Below are positions 3-23,339 of a DNA stretch of 29,692 nucleotides, in pieces. The notes under the pieces were generated by a model that did not search any database, was not told the origin of the DNA, and saw nothing but the letters and a program-made list of their open reading frames with translations. The DNA comes from a bacterium (GTDB lineage: Bacteria > Patescibacteriota > Gracilibacteria > UBA1369 > LOWO2-01-FULL-3), in NCBI GenBank assembly GCA_027622635.1, contig JAQBYK010000001.1, forward strand, positions 1 to 29,692, written 5' to 3'. Every line of letters starts with the position of its first letter. Within the stretch, counting starts at the first letter, position 1. The position numbers and the translations under genes were made by a program.

Positions 3-713
3 CTTTGGGGAAATATCAGAAATTTAGTCAAATTTGGTGCTTCTGAGGATGAAATTTGGGCTGCCATTGAAGCTATACAAAACAGTCTTGATGATATCGA
101 TTATGAAAATGTTTTTGGAGAGAATTCTGTAGAATTCTACGACGTAGAGTTTGGAGAAAATCCGGCCTGGTATTGGGATGATGTTATGACTACGCGGAAG
201 AAGGGCATAATAAACGGGTATAGCGATGATGATGGATTGACTGGTTACTTTGGACCTGGAGACAATGTAACCTATGCAGAGGCGCTTAAGATGACCTTGG
301 AAGCTGCAGGATATGGAGAGGCATCTCACAATGAAAACATATTTTGGTATGAGGGATATCTTGTTAGATTGGACGAGCTTTCTCTACCCGGGCTTAATCG
401 TGGAAGTTATGAGTGGAATGCCACTGCACCTCGGGGAGACATTCTTATGATGGTAAATGGCATTTTCGGATTGGAAGCCGTTGATTATGTGGATGGCACA
501 TTCCCGGATGTATCCGCTAGTGACTCAATTGCAGATGACGCAATGGCATCTTACTTGGCCGGAATATTTACCGGTGCCGGCGAAACGGGAAATCTTAATC
601 CAAATGACTTTATAGATAGGGCATCTTTTGCTAAAGTGATTAACGTTGGATATGATTATTTATCAGATGAAAACTTTACAGATACACTAAAGACATTTAA
701 TCAAAAATTGTAA
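3..713 (+). CDS. S-layer homology (SLH) domain surface protein, 5'-partial (frame open to window edge)
   Basis: Frame is open from nt 3 (LWGNIRNLVKF...), so the 186 start in the ORF track is internal. SLH-like repeats: FYDVEFG..AWY..VMTTRKKGIINGY..GYFGPGDNVTYAEALKM and FPDVSASDSIADDAMASYLAGIFTG..GNLNPNDFIDRASFAKVI. Confidence 0.8.
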   Translation, partial: LWGNIRNLVKFGASEDEIWAAIEAIQNSLDDIDYENVFGENSVEFYDVEFGENPAWYWDDVMTTRKKGIINGYSDDDGLTGYFGPGDNVTYAEALKMTLEAAGYGEASHNENIFWYEGYLVRLDELSLPGLNRGSYEWNATAPRGDILMMVNGIFGLEAVDYVDGTFPDVSASDSIADDAMASYLAGIFTGAGETGNLNPNDFIDRASFAKVINVGYDYLSDENFTDTLKTFNQKL

Positions 714-1094: not shown

Positions 1095-1122
1095 TTTACA
1101 AAAAAAAGATCTCTGCTAATAT
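1095..1122 (+). promoter_or_regulatory. Sigma70-type promoter of the ilv leader/operon
   Basis: TTTACA (1095-1100), 16 nt spacer, TGc-TAATAT (-10 at 1117-1122, extended TG at 1114-1115). The predicted start site (about 1129-1130) coincides with the leader ATG. Confidence 0.6.
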
Positions 1123-1129
1123 CAACACA

Positions 1130-1177
1130 ATGAAACGTCTCATACTAATTATTTCAGTGCTAATTATTATCCTCTAG
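1130..1177 (+). CDS. ilvL: ilv operon leader (attenuator) peptide MKRLILIISVLIIIL
   Basis: ATG AAA CGT CTC ATA CTA ATT ATT TCA GTG CTA ATT ATT ATC CTC TAG: 15 aa, 11 of them Ile (6), Leu (4) or Val (1), no Thr. Lies directly upstream of a terminator and the ilv genes. Too short for the ORF track. Confidence 0.88.
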   Translation: MKRLILIISVLIIIL

Positions 1178-1203
1178 TCCAGAGAGACGTTTGCATTAAA
1201 AGT

Positions 1204-1237
1204 AAAAACCTCTCTGCACTGCAAAGAGGATTTTTTT
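1204..1237 (+). terminator. Intrinsic terminator of the attenuator
   Basis: AAAAA-CCTCT-C-TGC-act-GCA-A-AGAGG-A-TTTTTTT. Confidence 0.85.
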
Positions 1238-1291: not shown

Positions 1292-3130
1292 ATGGTCACA
1301 CTAAACGAAAATTTCTACACCCTTCAATGCATAAACTGCAAAGCGGAATTTGATGAGCACACAACCTGCACAAAGTGCCTCAAATGTGGCTGTTCTCTTG
1401 ACGTAATCTACAACTATGATTTTATTAAGCAGCGATTAAATCTCTACGCGCTCAAGCATTCGCCCATATCGGCACTAAAATACCTGACATTCTATCCGAT
1501 CATAGATTTATCGAAAATCATCACTTTAAACGAAGGTGGAACACCACTTCACCACTGCAAAAATCTTTCAAAAAAATATAAACTAAACAATCTTTTCATA
1601 AAAAATGAAGGAGCAAACCCAACCGGAGTATTCAAAGATAGAGGCACACTTGTAGAAATAACGAAAGCCCAGGAAATGGGGGCAAAAGCGGTTTGTTTTG
1701 CATCAACAGGAAACATGGCTGCATCTGTAGCCGCCTATTGTACTCAGGCAAAACTTCCTTGCTACGTTTTGGTACCGGAAGGAACCCCAATCGGAAAATT
1801 GGCGCAAACACTTTCATATGGCGCAAGAATAATCCAGGTACGTGGCACATACTCTCAGTGTTCTAAATTGGCCGAACAAATGGCCAAGAAGCACGGCTTC
1901 TTTTTGGCGGGAGATTATGCGTTCAGACTTGAAGGTCAAAAATCTCAGGCATACGAAATAGCCGAACAGCTGGGTTGGAAAGCTCCTGATTATCTCGTGT
2001 GCCCGGTTGGAGTAGGCACAAACATATCGGCAATTTGGAAAGGATTCAGTGAGCTTCATAAATTAGACTTAATCGACAAGCTCCCAAAAATAATAGCGGT
2101 ACAACCTGATGGATGTGATGTTGTTGTTCGAGCCTTTAATTCCAAAAGCAAAAAATTAGTGGAAATCGAAAAACCAAACACCGTGTGTAGCGCAGTCGCG
2201 GTTTCAATGCCATTCGATGGAATGAAAGTACTAAAAGCTCTAAAAGATTCCGGTGGTTGTGGAGTTAGCATACCTGACGAAGAAGTTCTGGCAATTGAGC
2301 AAACTTTAGCCAGAGAAGAGGCTATATTTGTTGAACCGTCGGGTGCTCTTCCTCTTGCCGCAGTGGCAAAGTTAAGTGAGAAAGGATTCTTTAAAAAAGA
2401 TGACACCATTGTTTGTGTGGCAACAGGTAATGGGCTCAAAGACCCAAAATCCGCGGTAAAAATTATTCCGGACCCTCCCACAATTGATCCCGAATTATCA
2501 GAAGTAGACAATTACCTTAAATACAAACTTTATCAAATCCAATCCGAGGGGGTTAAAAATCGAAGTAAAATTCTTTGGAAAAAAATTCCTTCGGAAAAAG
2601 ATTTAAAAAAGATTGTCCATGATGAATTCGGAATCAATTTAAGTAAGGCGGTATTGAAAGGCACTACTGATAGCATCAAAAAATTTGAGACAAAAGGCAA
2701 GAAGATAAATAAACAAGATATTCAAAATATTATTGAAGAACAGCTGGACGAATATAATCAGAAGGAAAAACATCTCAAGATAATAGATTTCGAAGTTAAA
2801 ACTTCTAAATACAAAGAGGCGGAGGCAAGTATTAAACTAAGCTATGGAAATAAAATACTTATTGAGCAGGCCAAGGGTGTAGGTGCGGTAGATGCGATAA
2901 TAAGTGCTCTAAAAAAAGCCATCAAAGGTCACGATAAACTGGAAATAAAACTAATAGACTACAATGTTGAAATATTCACGGGCGGTGTTGAAGCAGCAGT
3001 GAAAGTTGTTATGACCGCTATTGATAAAAATGGAAATCGTATCATCGCACAGGCTACATCACCTGACGTAATCGTAGCCTCGGTAAGTGCTTTTGAGAAA
3101 TGCTACAACTTCCTATACCACAGAAAATAA
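1292..3130 (+). CDS. thrC: Threonine-synthase-like PLP enzyme fused to a C-terminal LeuA/CimA-type allosteric (dimerisation) domain
   Basis: N-terminal CxxC..CxxC zinc ribbon; KNEGANPTGVFKDRG (PLP Lys115), ASTGN, RLEGQKS, FVEPSGA, TGNGLKDP (fold-type II ThrC, to about aa 385). Aa 494-612 match the LeuA_dimer pattern GVGAVDAIISAL..IKLIDYNV..GGVEAAVKV..ATSPDVIVASVSAF..N. Confidence 0.85.
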   Translation: MVTLNENFYTLQCINCKAEFDEHTTCTKCLKCGCSLDVIYNYDFIKQRLNLYALKHSPISALKYLTFYPIIDLSKIITLNEGGTPLHHCKNLSKKYKLNNLFIKNEGANPTGVFKDRGTLVEITKAQEMGAKAVCFASTGNMAASVAAYCTQAKLPCYVLVPEGTPIGKLAQTLSYGARIIQVRGTYSQCSKLAEQMAKKHGFFLAGDYAFRLEGQKSQAYEIAEQLGWKAPDYLVCPVGVGTNISAIWKGFSELHKLDLIDKLPKIIAVQPDGCDVVVRAFNSKSKKLVEIEKPNTVCSAVAVSMPFDGMKVLKALKDSGGCGVSIPDEEVLAIEQTLAREEAIFVEPSGALPLAAVAKLSEKGFFKKDDTIVCVATGNGLKDPKSAVKIIPDPPTIDPELSEVDNYLKYKLYQIQSEGVKNRSKILWKKIPSEKDLKKIVHDEFGINLSKAVLKGTTDSIKKFETKGKKINKQDIQNIIEEQLDEYNQKEKHLKIIDFEVKTSKYKEAEASIKLSYGNKILIEQAKGVGAVDAIISALKKAIKGHDKLEIKLIDYNVEIFTGGVEAAVKVVMTAIDKNGNRIIAQATSPDVIVASVSAFEKCYNFLYHRK

Positions 3131-3142
3131 ACCAAACTATAA

Positions 3143-4066
3143 ATGTCTAAAACTTTTCCCTACACATACATAAAAGGAAGAACAACTAGGACAAAAGACG
3201 CAAAAGTGCCTATCCAATGCAAGGCCATTCAATATGGACTTGGTTGCTTTACCGGCATTCGCGGATTCTGGCATAAGAAAAAAAAGAATCTTTATCTATT
3301 CAGACTTGAAGATCACTACAAAAGACTTAAGAATTCTTCCAAACTTTTGGGAATGAAATTCGACTACACATATCCGGAGTTCAGAGAGATCATTTTTAAA
3401 TTGGTAAAACGCAATAAGGTCAAAGAAGACCTATATATAAGACCAACTCTATATGCGGCATCAACACTTCTCACACCTCGTTTTGATAACCCGGATGACG
3501 ATCTTGCCATTTACATGATATCTCTAAAAAATTATTTCAAAGCAGATCGAGGATTAAATGTTTGTATTAGCAGCTGGACCAGATTTAGTGACGACATCAT
3601 TCCGACAAAAGCAAAAAGTACCGGTGCATATGCCAATGGTGCGCTCGCAAAAACAGAAGCTTTGAGAAAAGGTTTCGATGAGCCAATATTCTTAGACGCA
3701 AAAGGCAATGTATGCGAAGCCAGTGGCGCCAACATTTTTGGCATAAAGAATGGAGTGATCTGGACTCCACCAACGACAGCCAGCATTTTAAACGGAATTA
3801 CTCGTGACAGCTTAATCAAACTCGCAAGGAAAGAACTCAAACTAAAAGTTGAAGAGAAAAATTTCAAGAAGGAAAAGCTATTTCAATTTGATGAATTATT
3901 CTTGTCGGGCACAGCAGCGAAAATCACTCCGGTAGCAAGTGTGGATAAAAAGAAAATTGGAAATGCATCGCTGGGTCCAATTACCGCGCAACTAAAAACA
4001 CTATATGACAAAGCTGTAATGACTGACCTAAAAGGTTACGAGAAATGGTGTACATCTATATATTAA
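3143..4066 (+). CDS. ilvE: Branched-chain amino acid aminotransferase
   Basis: [30 protein letters not shown] (PLP Lys), [23 protein letters not shown]: fold-type IV aminotransferase, in ilv context. Confidence 0.92.
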
Positions 4067-4073
4067 ATTAATC

Positions 4074-5759
4074 ATGACTAATCAAAATCTCAAAAAAAGG
4101 AGTTCACTTATGACGGATGGAGACGCTCGTGCTCCAAGTCGCGCTATGCTTCGTGGCACAGGATTTAAGGACGAAGATTTTAAAAAACCACTAATAGGGG
4201 TTGCCAGTTGTTGGAGTGAAATCACAACTTGTAATATGCACCTGGACAAATTAGCAAAGAGTGCAAGGGATGGAGTTTGGGATAACGAAGGGGCAGCGCA
4301 AATATTCGGGACAATCACAGTTTCCGATGGTATTTCCATGGGACATGAAGGTATGAAGTATTCACTTGTAAGCCGCGAAGTAATTGCTGACTCAATTGAG
4401 ACGGTTGCCGGCGCGCAGCGCTTTGATGGCCTGATTTGTGTAGGTGGTTGTGACAAGAATATGCCCGGATCCCTTATGGCAATCGCCAGAGTAAACGCAC
4501 CTGCAATATTCATATACGGAGGAACAATAATGCCGGGTAAATTTGAAGGAAAAGACATCGACATAGTTAGTATTTTCGAAGCCGTTGGCAAATTCCAGTC
4601 CAAAAAAATAGACGAAAAAGAATTTCACGAAATTGAATGCAATGCCTGCCCGGGGCCGGGATCATGTGGTGGCATGTACACCGCAAATACAATGTCATCA
4701 GCAATCGAAGCACTTGGGATGGCTTTGCCATATGGATCTACAACACCTGGAATTTCAACTGAAAAATTAGAAGAATGCGAAAAAGCGGGGAAACAAGTTC
4801 TGGAACTAATCAAAAACAACATCACTCCGGACAAAATTATGACAAAAAAAGCATTTGAAAATGCAATTACGGTAGCCCTGGTACTGGGTGGATCAACAAA
4901 TGCGGTTCTACATTTGTTAGCCATGGCTCATTGTATTGGGGTAGAGCTAAACTTAGAAGACTTCAATCGCTTGTCGGATAAAACCCCACAACTGGCAAAT
5001 CTAAAACCGGGAGGAAAATATGTGACAGTCGATCTACATCGTATAGGAGGACTTCCCGCTGTCATGAAAACGCTACTTGATGCAGGAATGATCCACGGAG
5101 AATGTATGACTGTTACTGGAAAAACTGTTGCGGAAAATTTAGAAAACGTTTCACATTTTTCAAAAGATCAGGACGTTGTTATGCAACTGGAAAATCCAAT
5201 AACCAAAACCGGCCCATTTGCAATATTGCACGGGAATCTGGCGCCTGAAGGTGCGGTTGTAAAAATTAAGGGACTAAAAGCAACCAAGCACAGTGGCCCT
5301 GCAAAAATTTATGATTGTGAAGAAGATGCATTCCACGCGATTGAGCAAGACAAAGTAAAAGCCGGTGACACAGTGGTAATAAGACATGAAGGACCCAAGG
5401 GCGGCCCGGGAATGCGCGAAATGCTGTCAGTCACCTCGGCACTAATCGGCAAAGGGATTGGCCACGAAGTTGCGCTTATTACAGATGGTCGCTTCTCAGG
5501 TGGAAGTCATGGATTCATCATAGGACACACAGCCCCGGAGGCATATGTTGGTGGACCTATCGCACTAATCAAGGACGGCGACATCATCAACATAGATTTG
5601 GAAAATAAATCAATGGACGTAGAACTCAGTGAAGAAGAGCTCGCAAAGCGCCTTGAAAACTGGACAAAACCGGCCCCTAAGTATAAATTTGGGGTCTTAC
5701 GCAAGTATATTGAAACAGTCGGCTCACCAAAATACGGTGCTATCACAGATAAATTTTAA
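4074..5759 (+). CDS. ilvD: Dihydroxy-acid dehydratase
   Basis: [73 protein letters not shown]. Confidence 0.97.
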
Positions 5760-5773
5760 TTAACCTAAAAACC

Positions 5774-6820
5774 ATGACAAAATTAAATTTCGGAGGCAAA
5801 GACGAAGAAGTTGTTACACGCGAAGAACTTCCTCTATCAAAGGCACAAGAAATATTGAAAGACGAAACTATCGCAGTCTTAGGCTACGGAGTGCAAGGGC
5901 CGGGTCAAGCAATGAACCTAAAAGACAACGGCATCAATGTAATAATCGGCCAAAGAAAAGGCGGTGATTCATGGGAAAAGGCCCTTAAAGACGGATGGGT
6001 GGAAGGCGAAACACTTTTTGAGCTTGAAGAAGCGGCAGAAAAGGGAACCGTATTAATGTATTTACTTTCAGATGCGGGACAGAAAATGTGTTGGCATAAG
6101 GTGCGACAGCACCTTAAAAAGGGAAATGCGCTATATTTCTCACATGGTTTTTCGATAGTTTACAAAGACCAAACCGGAGTTATACCACCGGAAGACGTGG
6201 ATGTGATTCTTGTCGCACCAAAAGGACCGGGAGGGAAACTAAGAGAACTCTTCCTAAAAGGAGAAGGTGTTAATTCAAGTTTTGCCATTCACCGGGACGC
6301 TACCGGTAATGCAAGAGATCGCGCTCTCGCACTTGGTATCGCGGTCGGATCAGGGTTCTTATTTGAAACTACATTTGAAAAAGAAGTTGTAAGCGATTTA
6401 ACAGGCGAAAGAGGTGTCCTTATGGGGGCAATAGCTGGAATAATGGAGGCTCAGTACAACATTCTTAGAAAAAACGGACACAGCCCATCAGAAGCTTTTA
6501 ACGAGACTGTTGAAGAAGCCACTCAAAGTTTAATTCCTTTAATAGGAGAAAACGGAATGGATTGGATGTACGCAAATTGCTCCACGACAGCTCAGAGAGG
6601 TGCATTGGATTGGAGACACAAATTCCGCGAGGCCACAGAACCGGTATTTGAAAAACTATATGACAGCGTCAAAACGGGAAAAGAAACAGAGATTGTACTT
6701 AAAGCGAATAGCGATCCAAATTATAAAGAAAAACTGAAAGAAGAACTCGACGAAATGGCAAAGTCGGAAATGTGGCAGGCAGGACGTACAGTTAGATCCT
6801 TGCGGCCAAAAGCCAGTTAA
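5774..6820 (+). CDS. ilvC: Ketol-acid reductoisomerase (Bacteroidetes/fungal Ilv5-like type)
   Basis: GYGVQGPGQ Rossmann motif, YFSHGF, VAPKGPG, SDLTGERGVLMG, EAFNETVEE, NCSTTAQRGALDW; N-terminal LNFGGKDEEVVTREE extension. Confidence 0.95.
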   Translation: MTKLNFGGKDEEVVTREELPLSKAQEILKDETIAVLGYGVQGPGQAMNLKDNGINVIIGQRKGGDSWEKALKDGWVEGETLFELEEAAEKGTVLMYLLSDAGQKMCWHKVRQHLKKGNALYFSHGFSIVYKDQTGVIPPEDVDVILVAPKGPGGKLRELFLKGEGVNSSFAIHRDATGNARDRALALGIAVGSGFLFETTFEKEVVSDLTGERGVLMGAIAGIMEAQYNILRKNGHSPSEAFNETVEEATQSLIPLIGENGMDWMYANCSTTAQRGALDWRHKFREATEPVFEKLYDSVKTGKETEIVLKANSDPNYKEKLKEELDEMAKSEMWQAGRTVRSLRPKAS

Positions 6821-6828
6821 GAAATCAG

Positions 6829-8667
6829 ATGCTAAAAACTAAATCACAAAAAGTGAAAAAAGAAGCAATCAAACCCCATAACAGGGCAAACATAACGCAC
6901 AACATACCAAAAACTCTAACGGGAGCAGACTTGTTTTGCCAAGCCCTTGCGGACCAAGGTGTTGAGATAATGTTTGGAATACCGGGAGGAGTTGTTTTAC
7001 CACTTTATGATAGAATAAATAAGTATGGTCATCATATCAGGCATATATTACCAAGCCACGAACAAGGTGGAGGATTTGCAGCGGACGGCTACGCCAGAGT
7101 TACGGGCGAAGTGGGAGTAGCCCTTGGAACATCCGGGCCGGGTGCCACAAATCTCATGACCGCAATTGCAAATTCGATGATGGATTCTGTGCCAACTGTG
7201 TATATAACCGGACAGGTTGTTGAAAATTTCATTGGCACAGACGCATTCCAGGAAACGGACGTAATCGGGATGTCTATGCCGATTGTTAAGCATAGCTATC
7301 TGGTGACCCAAGCAAGGGACATTTCACGAGTAGTAAAAGAAGCATTTTATATCGCGAAAACGGGACGCCCGGGCCCGGTTCACATTGATCTGGTGAAAGA
7401 CATCTGGTTTCAGGAGGCAAAGTACAAGTCGGATCCAAAGATGGACTTGCCGGGCTATAGTCCCATTGCTGAACATTGCAGCGATCGTGATATTGCAAAG
7501 CTGGATATTCTTTTAGAAAAAAAAGGTGTGAAGCCAATTATTTTTGCAGGGCATGGAGTCGAATTATCGGGAGCCCAGGCAGAGTTGGTAGAATTTGCGG
7601 AGAAGCATAACATACCTGTAGCTTCCACTCTACTGAACTTGGGAAATTTCCCGCAAGGGCATGAACTTTGGGCTGGAATGATAGGAATGCACGGCGATGC
7701 GGTCACAAACTACGCCACACATGACGCAAATCTTATCATCGGCATTGGGTGTCGTTTTGATGACCGTATTACAGGTAAACTTGAGACATTCATAAAGGAC
7801 ACAACATTCGTGCACATGGAAATCGATCCATCCGAAATTGGGAAAATTGTGCCCACAGAATTACCTTTGCCAGGAGATGTAAAAGACTTGTTAACTCGTG
7901 CAAATAAAGTGCTTTCCAATCACACTTTTCCGGACTGGTGGGATCAAATAAACAAATGGAAAAAGAAATATGGTTTTCTCGATTTCAAATTAAATCCTGA
8001 AAACGATAAGAAATTCTTAAGTCAGCCCAGAATAATACAGATGCTATCAGAAATTACTAACGGCGAGGCAATTGTCGCAGCTGATGTAGGTCGTCACCAA
8101 ATGTGGACAGGTCGATTCTATCGTTTCAAAAATCCAAATTCCAATCTCACATCGGGAGGGCTGGGGTCTATGGGGTACGGTTTGCCGGCTGCTATGGGAG
8201 CAAAACTCGGAAAACCGGATCGCGAAGTATGGAATATCTCGGGTGATGGTGGATTTATGATGAATGTACAAGAACTCGCGACTATAGCCGAACACAAAAT
8301 TCCTGTCAAAATTGCAATTATGGAGGACAAAGCACTCGGGATGGTAAGGCAATGGCAAAATCTGCTTTTCAAAGGAAACCTTTCTCATTCCGTATTAACA
8401 AACCCGGATTTCGTAAAATTATCCGAATCCTTTGGCATCCCTGCCTGGCGTGCACACAGCTACAAAGAAGCGGAAAAAGCAATTAAAGAAGCACGAAAAG
8501 TAGATGGGCCGGCTTTGATAACATTCATGGTCGACCCGGACGAACACGTCTACCCAATGGTCCCACCCAATACCGCACTTGGCGATCAAGCCCTTAAAGA
8601 CTCAGATCTATTACAAGATAAAGCCCATAAATATGACGAAGAAGACTTACTACAAGGTCACACTTAG
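6829..8667 (+). CDS. ilvB: Acetolactate synthase (AHAS) large subunit
   Basis: FGIPGG, HEQG (catalytic Glu), TSGPGATN, ITGQV, FQETD, GRPGPVHID, GMIGMHG, RFDDR, SGGLGSMGYGLPAA, GDGGF ThDP motif, LGMVRQWQ. Confidence 0.95.
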   Translation: MLKTKSQKVKKEAIKPHNRANITHNIPKTLTGADLFCQALADQGVEIMFGIPGGVVLPLYDRINKYGHHIRHILPSHEQGGGFAADGYARVTGEVGVALGTSGPGATNLMTAIANSMMDSVPTVYITGQVVENFIGTDAFQETDVIGMSMPIVKHSYLVTQARDISRVVKEAFYIAKTGRPGPVHIDLVKDIWFQEAKYKSDPKMDLPGYSPIAEHCSDRDIAKLDILLEKKGVKPIIFAGHGVELSGAQAELVEFAEKHNIPVASTLLNLGNFPQGHELWAGMIGMHGDAVTNYATHDANLIIGIGCRFDDRITGKLETFIKDTTFVHMEIDPSEIGKIVPTELPLPGDVKDLLTRANKVLSNHTFPDWWDQINKWKKKYGFLDFKLNPENDKKFLSQPRIIQMLSEITNGEAIVAADVGRHQMWTGRFYRFKNPNSNLTSGGLGSMGYGLPAAMGAKLGKPDREVWNISGDGGFMMNVQELATIAEHKIPVKIAIMEDKALGMVRQWQNLLFKGNLSHSVLTNPDFVKLSESFGIPAWRAHSYKEAEKAIKEARKVDGPALITFMVDPDEHVYPMVPPNTALGDQALKDSDLLQDKAHKYDEEDLLQGHT

Positions 8668-8884
8668 AGTGCGAAATGAAGCCGGCGTACTTGCCCGCAT
8701 AACCACTCGTATTCGCAAATTCCAGGTTAACATCAGATCTCTTGATGTTGCCCCAATTGATGAGAAGGAAAAATTCTCAGATATTCATATGGTGTTGGAA
8801 ACTGAAAAATCAGACATCACTACAATCATGAAAAAGACCGAGAGTCTAATTCCGGTGGTTGAGGCCTTTTATGAAAAACAATAA
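8633..8884 (+). CDS. ilvN: AHAS small regulatory subunit (single ACT domain, 83 aa)
   Basis: MTKKTYYKVTLRVRNEAGVLARI..VNIRSLDV ACT signature. ATG at 8633 is preferred over 8579 and overlaps the ilvB end by 35 nt. Confidence 0.82.
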   Translation: MTKKTYYKVTLRVRNEAGVLARITTRIRKFQVNIRSLDVAPIDEKEKFSDIHMVLETEKSDITTIMKKTESLIPVVEAFYEKQ

Positions 8885-14046: not shown

Positions 14047-14442
14047 ATGAAATCTAAAAGTCAAATTATCAAACAGACGCTCCTAGTGTTTGCATTGATG
14101 ATCGGTGCGATCAGCCTATTCTCTGCTATTCCGATGGCAAGTGCGGTAGGACTGCTTGACGCTGGCGACAATCCAGAAGTAATTGGAGCGGCTACGGGAG
14201 GAGAAACCTCACTAAGAGGACTTATCCTAACGCTCGTTAACTACTTCCTTGGATTTTTAGGTCTCCTTGCTGTAATCATGATTATCTACGGAGGTGTCAG
14301 TTATGTGACATCTGCTGGTAATGATGAAGCTGTAGGAAAAGCTAAGAAAATCATCATGTATGCCGTTATCGGTATCATCTTGATTCTATTATCTTTCGTA
14401 CTAGTAAGAGCAGTACTCGGAGCCGGAACAGGTACTGAATAA
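14047..14442 (+). CDS. TrbC/VirB2-like pilin (CPR-type)
   Basis: Signal peptide ending ASA, then LILTLVNYFLGFLGLLAVIMIIYGGVSYVTSAGNDEAVGKAKKIIMYAVIGIIL, the two-helix T4SS-pilin pattern. Confidence 0.8.
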   Translation: MKSKSQIIKQTLLVFALMIGAISLFSAIPMASAVGLLDAGDNPEVIGAATGGETSLRGLILTLVNYFLGFLGLLAVIMIIYGGVSYVTSAGNDEAVGKAKKIIMYAVIGIILILLSFVLVRAVLGAGTGTE

Positions 14443-22813: not shown

Positions 22814-23339
22814 TTTTCAATTTCTTTAAAGCATCATAAACTATAATCCCATAACACACCGCAACATTCAAAGAATTTGCTCTGCCAAGCATAGGTACTG
22901 AAATAGCCATATCAACATGCTCCATCAATTCATCAGAAATTCCTTCAACTTCATGGCCCAGCACAAAGCAAACAGGAAAATCATACTCAGCTTCTGAATA
23001 ATCAACTGCACCTTCCGCAAGCTCTACAGCCACAATCTTAATCCCAGCACATTTAAGTTTCTTAACAAGTTTGATCGCATCATCATGATGTTCAAACGGA
23101 ACCAATTCTTCAGCGCCAAGGGCGGTCTTGGAAATCTCATTTCGAGGAGGAAAACCGGTAAAACCACATAAATATAGTTTTTTTAATAAAACTGCGTCAG
23201 AGGTCCTAAAAATAGATCCTACGTTGTAAAGGCTTCTAACATTCTCCAGTAAAACATAAAAGTCAGATCGCTTTTTGCTCTTGAGTTCGGAAATCGAAGG
23301 CTTCATTTTTTGAATGTCCTCATGCTCAATTTTCTTCAT
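22806..23339 (-). CDS. TrmH/SpoU family RNA methyltransferase
   Basis: LENVRSLYNVGSIFRTSDA, KTALGAE, FVLGHEVEGI, IPM-like SVPMLGRANSLNVAV. Confidence 0.9.
   Translation of the reverse strand: MKKIEHEDIQKMKPSISELKSKKRSDFYVLLENVRSLYNVGSIFRTSDAVLLKKLYLCGFTGFPPRNEISKTALGAEELVPFEHHDDAIKLVKKLKCAGIKIVAVELAEGAVDYSEAEYDFPVCFVLGHEVEGISDELMEHVDMAISVPMLGRANSLNVAVCYGIIVYDALKKLKNA

What the first reader, a model, noticed from the sequence alone, without database searches (positions are those of the whole stretch)
1616..2023. ThrC-like enzyme has a remodelled phosphate site and sits where ilvA should be: possible non-orthologous 2-oxobutanoate source
Seen: the usual TGSFKDRG, NS(V/I)NPxR and PVGNxGN motifs read TGVFKDRG, A206-G-D-Y-A-F-R212 and PVG-V241-GTN. 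From memory of T. thermophilus ThrC, the substrate phosphate is held by Lys61, Thr88, Asn154, Ser155, Arg160 and Asn188. Here the Asn154, Ser155 and Asn188 equivalents are Ala, Gly and Val, with an Asp next to them. The operon has every step to Val/Ile except ilvA or cimA, and the leader has no Thr codons. Established: threonine synthases release 2-oxobutanoate as a side product, bound phosphate steers the reaction to Thr, and B. subtilis ThrC has an associated dehydratase activity. Inference: this protein may be a feedback-regulated threonine dehydratase or phosphohomoserine lyase. Caveat: ThrC subfamilies vary naturally in the NSVN loop.
Basis: partly seen in the sequence, partly recalled or inferred. 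Interest (0 to 1): 0.8.

Follow-up and report, generated by a model that had tools for sequence, protein, structure and literature searches.

The report
ThrC-derived stand-in for threonine deaminase
The first gene of this isoleucine/valine operon is labelled "threonine synthase", but it has lost the conserved phosphate-site motifs, carries a LeuA/CimA-type feedback sensor, and most likely makes the isoleucine precursor 2-oxobutanoate in bacteria that lack the usual threonine deaminase.

Summary
Window 1292-3130 (+) encodes a 612-aa protein. It has an N-terminal Cys4 ribbon, a class-I ThrC-like PLP domain (about 250 bits to solved ThrCs), and a C-terminal LeuA_dimer regulatory domain that this finding did not name.

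The four motifs read TGVFKDRG, STGNMAAS, AGDYAFR and PVGVGTN. Met142, Gly207, Asp208, Tyr209 and Arg212 are invariant in 120 homologues and in 34 cross-phylum fusions. None of five solved threonine synthases has these variants.

The gene heads a leader-peptide-attenuated operon: fusion, ilvE, ilvD, ilvC, ilvB, short ilvN.

- In 40 relatives, all 15 genomes with ilvD (window's own included) have the fusion, and no genome without it has ilvD.
- None has IlvA. At most one LeuA-type gene is present, except one extra weak hit in G035, so cimA is not apparent.
- Seven relatives also carry a separate canonical ThrC.
- Eight have the fusion but no homoserine dehydrogenase or ThrC.
- RidA co-occurs in 18 of 18 fusion genomes and is often adjacent.

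The same "GDY" clade sits in ilv operons of Francisellaceae, other Gammaproteobacteria, Bdellovibrionota and Chlamydiota that lack IlvA.

Best reading (about 0.65): an Ile-feedback-regulated threonine ammonia-lyase derived from ThrC. There is no biochemical proof. No paper on it was found in the searched library. This scan had already flagged the same fusion in other genomes.

The parts
1095..1122 (+). Promoter-like site (TTTACA, 16 nt, TG-TAATAT) upstream of the leader
   Evidence: The TTTACA and -10-like hexamers recur upstream of the leader in G001, G019 and G020 (sequences printed). This is a consensus match only.
1130..1177 (+). Leader peptide ORF MKRLILIISVLIIIL* (6 Ile, 4 Leu, 1 Val, no Thr)
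   Evidence: Read. It is conserved in three other genera: MKRLVLIISVIIIIL, MKKLALSLLIIVIIIL and MKKLVQLIIVVIIIL.
1180..1237 (+). Attenuator. CAGAGAG (1180-1186) can pair with CTCTCTG of the terminator's 5' arm. The terminator stem is 1209-1229, followed by a T-run at 1231-1237.
   Evidence: Fold (-27.7 kcal/mol, z = -3.3, 0 of 200 shuffles as good). Terminator-like stem. The same arrangement occurs in relatives. The switch mechanism is inferred.
1292..3130 (+). Fusion gene, 612 aa: Cys4 ribbon, ThrC-like PLP domain, linker, LeuA_dimer domain
   Evidence: Homologues cover 100% of its length. AlphaFold model has mean pLDDT 86 and pTM 0.81.
1328..1387 (+). N-terminal Cys4 zinc-ribbon (C13, C16, C29, C32)
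   Evidence: All four Cys are present in 118 of 118 aligned homologues.
1478..2491 (+). ThrC-like fold-type-II PLP domain (about residues 63-400). Schiff-base Lys115 lies in FKDRG.
   Evidence: PF00291 at 265 bits. TIGR00260 at 242 bits. 223-253 bits to the four solved bacterial ThrCs (141 to Arabidopsis), at 37-39% identity by Foldseek. Foldseek TM about 0.85 to ThrC structures.
1616..2023 (+). It holds the remodelled site: V113, M142, A206-G207-D208-Y209, R212 and V241.
2705..3115 (+). LeuA_dimer (LeuA/CimA allosteric) domain, residues 472-608. It contains the GVGAVDA loop.
   Evidence: PF08502 at 86.5 bits against a cut-off of 24.9. The only significant solved match (E 3e-5) is the Leptospira citramalate synthase regulatory domain 3f6g/3f6h. 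G529, G531, D534 and D592 are invariant.
3143..4066 (+). ilvE, branched-chain amino acid aminotransferase
   Evidence: NF005146 at 322 bits, over cut-off.
4074..5759 (+). ilvD, dihydroxy-acid dehydratase
   Evidence: TIGR00110 at 766 bits.
5774..6820 (+). ilvC, ketol-acid reductoisomerase
   Evidence: TIGR00465 at 334 bits.
6829..8667 (+). ilvB, acetolactate synthase large subunit
   Evidence: TIGR00118 at 678 bits.
8633..8884 (+). Short (83 aa) ACT-only acetolactate synthase small subunit (ilvN/ilvM-like). It overlaps the end of ilvB.
   Evidence: PF22629 ACT_AHAS_ss at 35.8 bits. In-frame ATG at 8633.

Best explanation
The protein is a ThrC-derived threonine ammonia-lyase (EC 4.3.1.19-like). 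It converts L-threonine to 2-oxobutanoate plus ammonia for isoleucine synthesis, and so replaces the missing IlvA.

Shown:
- It keeps the PLP machinery of threonine synthase (Lys115 in FKDRG, the GxGTN loop, TGNGLKD).
- The residues that are conserved in verified threonine synthases, and that are reported to hold the substrate phosphate, are replaced by Met142, Gly207/Asp208 (with Tyr209) and Val/Cys241.
- These replacements are fixed across a monophyletic "GDY" clade.

Inferred:
- Without a phosphate site the enzyme neither binds O-phosphohomoserine well nor has the bound phosphate that steers water addition towards threonine.
- It therefore performs the beta-elimination that ThrCs already show as a side reaction. 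It releases 2-aminocrotonate/2-iminobutanoate, which RidA hydrolyses to 2-oxobutanoate.
- The fused LeuA/CimA-type regulatory domain binds a branched-chain amino acid, most likely isoleucine, and feedback-inhibits the enzyme. [quoted passage not shown]
- Transcription of the whole operon is additionally controlled by an Ile-rich leader peptide and attenuator.
For: 1. Architecture and residues. PALP plus LeuA_dimer. Phosphate-site motif changes against five solved ThrCs. These changes are invariant in 120 close and 34 cross-phylum homologues. The PLP-binding residues are intact.

2. A distinct clade. In a 196-row tree, 93 GDY rows plus 1 other form one split (support 98). All 45 fused forms fall in a 60-row subclade (support 98).

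3. Operon position. It is the first gene of fusion-ilvE-ilvD-ilvC-ilvB here and in G019 and G020. GDY genes also sit inside ilvB/C/D clusters in Francisellaceae, other Gammaproteobacteria, Bdellovibrionota, Chlamydiota, a deltaproteobacterium and several Patescibacteria.

4. Phyletic pattern in 41 genomes (the window's plus 40 of the same family/order). ilvD is present in 15, and all 15 have the fusion. None of about 23 fusion-less genomes has ilvD.

5. No alternative source was found.
- No IlvA over threshold in any of the 41. The best IlvA-model hit is the fusion itself at about 100 bits, except in G024, where an 879-aa IlvA-like ORF scores 287 bits.
- At most one LeuA-type HMGL gene per genome, except an extra 167-bit hit in G035, so cimA is not apparent.
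- No Met gamma-lyase family hit in the window's genome.
- The same holds in whole genomes of Francisella sp. 19X1-34, the complete gammaproteobacterium Psp_hYS2021, a Bdellovibrionales MAG and three others: canonical ThrC is separate and there is no IlvA-like gene.

6. It is a paralogue of the real ThrC. A class-II thrC (Thr_synth_N + PALP, 290-305 bits) coexists with it in seven relatives, including the same genus, where it lies in a thrA...thrC cluster.

7. The substrate is not home-made phosphohomoserine. Eight relatives (89-97% complete, for example G020 at 97% in 10 contigs) have the fusion and the ilv genes but no homoserine dehydrogenase and no thrC.

8. RidA link.
- PF01042 is present in 18 of 18 fusion-bearing genomes against 2 of 23 without the fusion.
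- It is adjacent to the fusion in G026, G032, G035, G037 and G038 and in L047, L062, L068 and L110.
- Two non-fused close relatives are translationally coupled to RidA.
- RidA genes are known to cluster with threonine dehydratase genes (PMC4433059).

9. Chemistry precedent. Canonical ThrCs deaminate threonine at low rate, and a Microcystis ThrC produced alpha-ketobutyrate from threonine in vitro (PMC12172450).

10. Regulation. The leader peptide is Ile-rich and conserved in four genera. The only significant solved match of the C-terminal domain is the Ile-binding regulatory domain of Leptospira citramalate synthase.
Against: - No enzymology exists for any member.
- Arg212 (Arg160 equivalent) and Lys115 are retained, so some phosphate or other anion binding cannot be excluded.
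- NCBIfam equivalog models for threonine synthase still pass (TIGR00260 at 242 against a cut-off of 167; NF006050 at 311.5 against 303).
- Some genomes with the fusion also have IlvA/TdcB-like genes (Gracilimonas tropica, an NC10 genome, G047), so it is not always the only candidate.
- In Balneolota and NC10 the gene is not in an ilv operon.
- The window's own MAG is 84% complete and shows no canonical thrC, so taken alone it could not exclude a ThrC role.
- The relatives are MAGs, and absence calls depend on completeness.
- The effector (Ile, Leu or Val) is not determined.
- The phosphate-binding roles of the ThrC residues are recalled, not verified here.
Confidence: 0.65

Rival explanations
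1. It is an O-phosphohomoserine (or other activated homoserine) gamma-lyase. It makes 2-oxobutanoate directly and bypasses threonine: the ThrC reaction aborted before water addition, as reported for mammalian THNSL2 (recalled, not checked here).
For: - ThrC chemistry passes through the same aminocrotonate intermediate.
- Arg212 and Lys115 are retained.
- The window's lineage has thrA fused to a shikimate-kinase-like domain that could supply phosphohomoserine.
- In Balneolota the gene lies next to thrA and thrC.
- The RidA and ilv links fit this reading as well as they fit threonine deamination.
Against: - Eight relatives carry the fusion and the ilv genes but lack homoserine dehydrogenase and thrC, so they cannot make the substrate.
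- Four conserved phosphate-site residues are replaced, and an invariant Asp is introduced next to the site.
Confidence: 0.12
2. It is a genuine threonine synthase whose activity is allosterically tuned by branched-chain amino acids, as its database name says.
For: - It passes TIGR00260 and NF006050 thresholds.
- It has 37-39% identity and TM about 0.85 to solved ThrCs.
- No other thrC was found in the window's 84%-complete MAG.
Against: - A higher-scoring canonical thrC coexists in the same genus and six other relatives, and in Francisella sp., Psp_hYS2021, Gracilimonas, NC10 and Methanoperedens.
- The fusion is present in genomes with no hom.
- The conserved phosphate-site residues are lost.
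- It co-occurs strictly with ilvD and RidA rather than with hom.
- The thrA contig of the window's genome ends exactly where thrC follows in the sister genome.
Confidence: 0.06
3. It is another PLP reaction on a different amino acid. Candidates are methionine gamma-elimination to 2-oxobutanoate, serine dehydration, or a beta-replacement as in cysteate synthase.
For: - The remodelled pocket is more hydrophobic (Met, Val/Cys, Tyr), which could suit a thioether.
- ThrC relatives have evolved new reactions before (cysteate synthase).
- An archaeal GDY subtype has no ilv context.
Against: - Cysteate synthase model TIGR03844 scores 88 bits against a cut-off of 325.
- The tight ilv-operon and Ile-leader context points to 2-oxobutanoate supply.
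- Balneolota place the gene beside thr genes, not met genes.
- Making isoleucine from methionine is costly.
Confidence: 0.08

Closest known systems
Class-I (short, bacterial/archaeal/plant-type) threonine synthase ThrC, EC 4.2.3.1 (T. thermophilus 1UIM/1V7C, Aquifex 2ZSJ, B. subtilis 6CGQ/6NMX, M. tuberculosis 2D1F); Zn-ribbon subtype PRK08197
   Same: - Same fold and 37-39% identity.
- Same PLP lysine motif FKDRG, EGQK and TGNGLKD.
- The N-terminal Cys4 ribbon is as in the PRK08197 subtype.
- The parent chemistry already yields 2-oxobutanoate as a side product.
   Different: - Thr88, Asn154, Ser155 and Asn188 equivalents are replaced by Met, Gly, Asp (plus Tyr) and Val/Cys, with a one-residue shorter loop.
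- It has an extra C-terminal LeuA_dimer domain.
- It sits in ilv operons, not thr operons.
- It coexists with a canonical ThrC.
Biosynthetic threonine ammonia-lyase IlvA, EC 4.3.1.19
   Same: - Proposed same reaction and pathway position.
- Same fold-type-II PLP superfamily.
- A C-terminal allosteric domain for end-product feedback.
- Gene clustering with ilv genes and RidA.
   Different: - It is not an IlvA by sequence (about 100 bits against a cut-off of 379).
- The regulatory domain is LeuA_dimer, not ACT-like.
- It descends from ThrC.
Regulatory domain of citramalate synthase CimA and isopropylmalate synthase LeuA (PF08502; Leptospira CimA 3F6G/3F6H)
   Same: - The domain scores 86.5 bits to PF08502.
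- It aligns to 3F6G with a conserved GxGxxDA loop.
- In CimA this domain senses isoleucine at the first committed step towards 2-oxobutanoate, which is the same regulatory logic.
   Different: It is attached to a PLP enzyme instead of the HMGL-like TIM barrel. The ligand is not determined.
Moonlighting ThrC of Microcystis aeruginosa (PMC12172450)
   Same: It is a ThrC-family protein shown to make alpha-ketobutyrate from threonine in vitro.
   Different: - That enzyme is still primarily a threonine synthase with a reportedly comparable active site.
- It has no LeuA_dimer domain.
- An IlvA is present in that organism.
Mammalian threonine synthase-like 2 (THNSL2) phospho-lyase and archaeal cysteate synthase (both recalled from memory)
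   Same: Both are examples of ThrC homologues that have left threonine synthesis for elimination or replacement reactions.
   Different: - Both act on phosphorylated substrates.
- Cysteate synthase model TIGR03844 is not met (88 against 325 bits).
- Neither has a fused feedback domain.

Membership tests
Threonine synthase (TIGR00260 / EC 4.2.3.1) | Sequence model score above the curated cut-off | tested here: met
   TIGR00260 at 242.3 bits against a cut-off of 167.1. NF006050 at 311.5 against 303.
Threonine synthase (TIGR00260 / EC 4.2.3.1) | Fold-type-II PLP fold with the Schiff-base lysine in the FKDRG motif | tested here: met
   Lys115 lies in TGVFKDRG. Foldseek TM about 0.85 to ThrC structures.
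Threonine synthase (TIGR00260 / EC 4.2.3.1) | Conserved substrate-phosphate site (Thr88, Asn154, Ser155, Arg160, Asn188 in T. thermophilus numbering; roles recalled, not verified) | tested here: not met
   Four of the five are replaced (Met142, Gly207, Asp208, Val241). Only Arg212 is kept. The replacements are invariant in the family.
Threonine synthase (TIGR00260 / EC 4.2.3.1) | Acts as the genome's threonine synthase: co-occurs with hom and homoserine kinase, typically as the sole or thr-clustered copy | tested here: not met
   A separate canonical thrC is present in seven relatives and in five other genomes. Eight relatives have the fusion without hom.
Threonine synthase (TIGR00260 / EC 4.2.3.1) | Converts O-phosphohomoserine to threonine | not testable with these tools
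   This needs an enzyme assay.
Biosynthetic threonine ammonia-lyase IlvA (TIGR01124 / TIGR01127) | Sequence model score above the curated cut-off | tested here: not met
   TIGR01127 at 100.5 bits against 378.75. TIGR01124 at 70.2 against 411.3.
Biosynthetic threonine ammonia-lyase IlvA (TIGR01124 / TIGR01127) | C-terminal ACT-like regulatory domain(s) | tested here: not met
   The C-terminus is LeuA_dimer (PF08502). There is no ACT hit.
Biosynthetic threonine ammonia-lyase IlvA (TIGR01124 / TIGR01127) | Pathway role: clusters and co-occurs with ilv genes and RidA, in genomes with no other 2-oxobutanoate source | tested here: met
Biosynthetic threonine ammonia-lyase IlvA (TIGR01124 / TIGR01127) | Deaminates L-threonine to 2-oxobutanoate and is inhibited by isoleucine | not testable with these tools
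   This needs an enzyme assay or complementation.
LeuA/CimA allosteric domain (PF08502 LeuA_dimer) | Domain model score above the gathering cut-off | tested here: met
   86.5 bits against 24.9, residues 472-608; 89.8 bits on the DNA.
LeuA/CimA allosteric domain (PF08502 LeuA_dimer) | Attached to an HMGL-like (alpha-isopropylmalate/citramalate synthase) catalytic barrel | tested here: not met
   There is no PF00682 in this protein. The only HMGL-like gene of the genome is leuA on contig C1.
LeuA/CimA allosteric domain (PF08502 LeuA_dimer) | Binds Leu or Ile and transmits inhibition | not testable with these tools
   Only the conserved GxGxxDA loop and its alignment to 3F6G were seen.
Cysteate synthase (TIGR03844) | Sequence model score above the curated cut-off | tested here: not met
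   88.1 bits against 324.9. Solved cysteate synthase 9k3c scores only 21 bits.

The most novel reading that the evidence does not exclude
A whole unrecognised enzyme family exists: ThrC-derived, LeuA_dimer-regulated threonine ammonia-lyases. It has displaced IlvA as the entry enzyme of isoleucine synthesis in many lineages (Peregrinibacteria and other Patescibacteria, Francisellaceae and other Gammaproteobacteria, Bdellovibrionota, Chlamydiota, probably Balneolota and NC10). All members are currently annotated as threonine synthase. It would be a natural case of an enzyme's side reaction becoming its main function by loss of a phosphate site, with a regulatory domain taken from a different enzyme class.
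Probability: 0.65. Interest if true: 0.8.

Novelty: new variant of a known kind. Interest (0 to 1): 0.7.

Why it matters
- **Missing step.** If right, it fills the "missing ilvA" gap in isoleucine synthesis for several phyla, including cultivable Francisellaceae, Fastidiosibacteraceae and Balneolaceae.
- **Annotation.** It corrects a systematic annotation error, since every member examined scores above the TIGR00260 cut-off or is named threonine synthase. It also changes metabolic reconstructions of candidate-phyla bacteria. Some would wrongly be credited with threonine synthesis and wrongly denied isoleucine synthesis.
- **Enzyme evolution.** It would be a clean natural example of neofunctionalisation. 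Removing a phosphate site turns a beta,gamma-replacement enzyme into an eliminase.
- **Allostery.** The LeuA/CimA sensor domain would be shown to be portable between unrelated catalytic folds.
- **Testability.** The hypothesis can be tested directly with standard assays and E. coli complementation.

Tried and rejected
- **Cysteate synthase.** Rejected (TIGR03844 at 88 against 325 bits; 9k3c at 21 bits).
- **A canonical thrC or IlvA hidden in the window's genome.** The PALP scan found only the fusion and trpB. tblastn with the sister genome's class-II ThrC and an IlvA-like query found nothing else. The MAG is only 84% complete and the thrA contig ends before the expected thrC.
- **cimA.** Only one HMGL-like gene (leuA) is present in this genome and in the relatives, apart from one extra weak hit in G035.
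- **Methionine gamma-lyase family.** Only weak hits in the window's genome, the best 30.5 bits, just over the 27-bit Pfam cut-off.
- **Standard homoserine kinase thrB.** Not found.
- **Literature.** Nine full-text searches found no paper describing a ThrC-LeuA_dimer fusion or a GDY-type ThrC.
- **Mechanism papers.** The papers that would verify the phosphate-site residue roles (PMC3024773, PMC7050208, DOI 10.1074/jbc.M110.186205) are not held.
- **Cluster look-up.** It gave no useful taxonomy.
- **Structure.** Prediction and Foldseek only re-confirmed the ThrC fold and added nothing on substrate.
- **Effector specificity.** It could not be settled from sequence. The only significant solved match (E 3e-5) is the Ile-binding CimA domain, at just 27 bits.
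- **Neighbourhoods of P0136 and P0154.** Uninformative.
Full report
**What is there**

Pfam finds a PLP-dependent PALP domain (residues 77-379, 265 bits). It also finds a C-terminal LeuA_dimer domain (residues 472-608, 86.5 bits), which this finding did not name. This is the allosteric domain of isopropylmalate and citramalate synthases.

The N-terminus carries a Cys4 ribbon, conserved in 118 of 118 homologues.

NCBIfam would still call the protein threonine synthase. TIGR00260 scores 242 against a cut-off of 167, and NF006050 scores 311.5 against 303. IlvA models score about 100 bits against cut-offs near 380, and cysteate synthase scores 88 against 325.

The AlphaFold model is confident (pLDDT 86, pTM 0.81). 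Its closest solved folds are bacterial threonine synthases (TM about 0.85, 37-39% identity).

**The observation**

| Canonical ThrC | This protein |
|---|---|
| TGSFKDRG | TGVFKDRG |
| NSVNPxR | AGDYAFR (one residue shorter) |
| PVGNAGN | PVGVGTN |

The deletion makes the register ambiguous. HMMER pairs Gly207 with Asn154 and Asp208 with Ser155. Arg160 (Arg212) is kept, as is the PLP lysine.

The changes are fixed, not drift.
- M142, A206, G207, D208, Y209 and R212 are 120/120 in homologues of 55-100% identity.
- M142, G207, D208, Y209, R212 and the G-x-G-T-N loop are invariant in 34 fusions from several phyla.

That these ThrC positions bind the substrate phosphate is recalled from the T. thermophilus literature. 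I could not verify it, because the papers are not held. What I did verify is their conservation in all four solved bacterial enzymes.

**Surroundings**

The gene is the first of an operon: fusion, ilvE, ilvD, ilvC, ilvB, and a short 83-aa ACT-only small subunit.

Upstream lie three elements.
- A promoter-like site.
- A 15-codon leader, MKRLILIISVLIIIL.
- An attenuator in which CAGAGAG can pair with the 5' arm of a terminator hairpin followed by a T-run.

The leader and attenuator are conserved in three other genera. The control signal is therefore Ile-dominated, with no threonine codon.

**The genome and its relatives**

The window comes from a 1.16-Mb, 84%-complete MAG. Homologue names place it in the Peregrinibacteria/Gracilibacteria part of the Patescibacteria.

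Its only PALP genes are this one and trpB. Its only HMGL-like gene is leuA.

It has a thrA (aspartokinase-homoserine dehydrogenase) whose reading frame runs on into a shikimate-kinase-like domain and off the contig end. In the same-genus genome G001 a canonical class-II thrC follows that gene. The missing thrC here is therefore most likely an assembly gap.

Results across the window's genome plus 40 relatives (41 in all):

| Feature | Result |
|---|---|
| Fusion | 16 genomes, plus two fragmentary copies |
| ilvD | 15 genomes, all with the fusion; none of about 23 fusion-less genomes has it |
| IlvA | None passes threshold; the fusion is itself the best IlvA-model hit, except in G024 (an 879-aa IlvA-like ORF) |
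| LeuA-type gene | At most one per genome, except an extra weak hit in G035 |
| Canonical ThrC | Coexists with the fusion in six relatives; a seventh (G038) has only a split copy |
| Fusion and ilv genes without hom or thrC | Eight relatives |
| RidA | 18 of 18 fusion genomes against 2 of 23 others; adjacent to the fusion in five |

**Beyond this lineage**

A search of 1.8 billion representatives found fused relatives down to 36% identity. It also found unfused relatives with the same STGNM / GDY / GTN signature. Two unfused ones are translationally coupled to a RidA gene.

A motif scan of GTDB genomes returned at least 120 loci. By tblastn, fused forms occur in:
- Balneolota, including isolates such as Gracilimonas tropica and Fodinibius halophilus
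- NC10
- Francisellaceae and Fastidiosibacteraceae isolates
- other Gammaproteobacteria
- Bdellovibrionota
- Chlamydiota
- Micrarchaeia
- several Patescibacteria

In Pseudomonadota (10 of 13 loci), Bdellovibrionota and Chlamydiota the gene lies between ilvB, ilvC and ilvD. In some Balneolota it lies beside thrA and a canonical thrC.

Whole-genome checks gave the following.
- Francisella sp. 19X1-34 and the complete gammaproteobacterium Psp_hYS2021 have a separate canonical ThrC. A Bdellovibrionales MAG and three other genomes each have a class-II-ThrC-sized PALP gene besides the GDY gene.
- None of these six has an IlvA-like gene.
- The first two have a single LeuA-type gene.
- Gracilimonas, an NC10 genome and G047 do have IlvA/TdcB-like genes as well.

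In a 196-row tree the GDY sequences form one well-supported split, and all fused forms fall in one subclade. An archaeal subtype (STGNMGAS / GDYPWR, about 380 aa, for example in Methanoperedens) is a third paralogue without ilv context. I leave its function open.

**Mechanism**

Best reading (about 0.65): a ThrC-derived threonine ammonia-lyase under branched-chain amino acid, probably Ile, feedback through the LeuA_dimer domain.

- Shown: the architecture, the fixed loss of the conserved phosphate-site residues, the intact PLP site, the clade, and the gene-context and phyletic patterns.
- Inferred: the substrate, the product, the role of RidA in hydrolysing the released enamine/imine, the effector, and the attenuation switch.

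Precedent comes from the known threonine-deaminating side activity of ThrCs and from the Microcystis ThrC (PMC12172450). RidA is also known to cluster with threonine dehydratase genes (PMC4433059).

The main rival is a phosphohomoserine gamma-lyase that bypasses threonine. It fits the chemistry and the RidA and ilv links equally well. It is disfavoured by the eight hom-less fusion-bearing genomes and by the lost phosphate site.

A true, allosterically tuned threonine synthase is unlikely given the coexisting canonical ThrC and the hom-less genomes.

**Novelty**

Nine literature searches found nothing on this fusion or clade.

This scan had already flagged the same fusion on other DNA, and earlier follow-up agents reached the same reading. 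Those are unchecked AI notes. I reached and tested the points independently before looking.

I rate it a new variant of a known kind: a fold-type-II PLP eliminase born from ThrC with a sensor domain taken from another enzyme class.

Noticed in passing
window 1095-1237: There is a classical leader-peptide transcription attenuator (Ile-rich 15-codon leader, antiterminator/terminator alternative) in a candidate-phyla bacterium. It is conserved with its promoter-like site in four genera (G000, G001, G019, G020).
   Followed up: partly
G000:C94:2-2830 (-); L009:2226-5366 (+): ThrA (aspartokinase-homoserine dehydrogenase) is fused to a C-terminal shikimate-kinase-like P-loop domain (PF01202, 28 bits). 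The ORFs are 918-1056 aa in several relatives. Standard thrB was not found, so this may be a non-orthologous homoserine kinase that makes a trifunctional protein.
   Followed up: partly
L014:2756-5392 (+) (G024:C6): An 879-aa ORF joins an IlvA-like PALP domain (287 bits to TIGR01127 over the catalytic part) to a Cys_Met_Meta_PP (cystathionine synthase/lyase-type) domain. This is an unusual two-PLP-domain fusion, in a genome that also has the ThrC-LeuA_dimer fusion.
   Followed up: no
window 8633-8884 (+): The acetolactate synthase small subunit is a very short (83 aa) ACT-only protein. Its start overlaps the last 35 nt of ilvB.
   Followed up: partly
L039:5356-6492 (-) and about 20 other Methanosarcinales loci (for example L021, L028, L031, L043): An archaeal subtype of the GDY clade (STGNMGAS / GDYPWR.EGTK, about 380 aa, unfused, no ilv context) is present. 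In Methanoperedens nitroreducens it is a third paralogue beside two higher-scoring ThrC-family genes. Its function is unknown.
   Followed up: partly
L017:8001-9702 (+); also P0131's contig: Unfused GDY-type genes (49-50% identical to the window's PLP domain) are translationally coupled to a RidA (Ribonuc_L-PSP) gene outside any ilv operon.
   Followed up: partly
G000:C137:1657-2615 (L002:1324-2163 and following): trpB of the window's genome is split over two reading frames. The first 279 aa match TIGR00263 positions 1-272 of 385, and the rest is in another frame. This is either a frameshift or an assembly error.
   Followed up: no
window 3-713 (+) and 23326-25407 (-): Two SLH-domain proteins are present, one with six FG-GAP repeats. 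They suggest an S-layer-anchored surface protein set in this Patescibacteria genome. A T4SS-pilin-like ORF lies at 14047-14442.
   Followed up: no
L013:1835-2992 (-) (G020:C1): There is a further divergent 386-aa PALP protein (96 bits to thrC, 62 bits to ilvA models) in a hom-less relative that also has the fusion. It was not classified.
   Followed up: no
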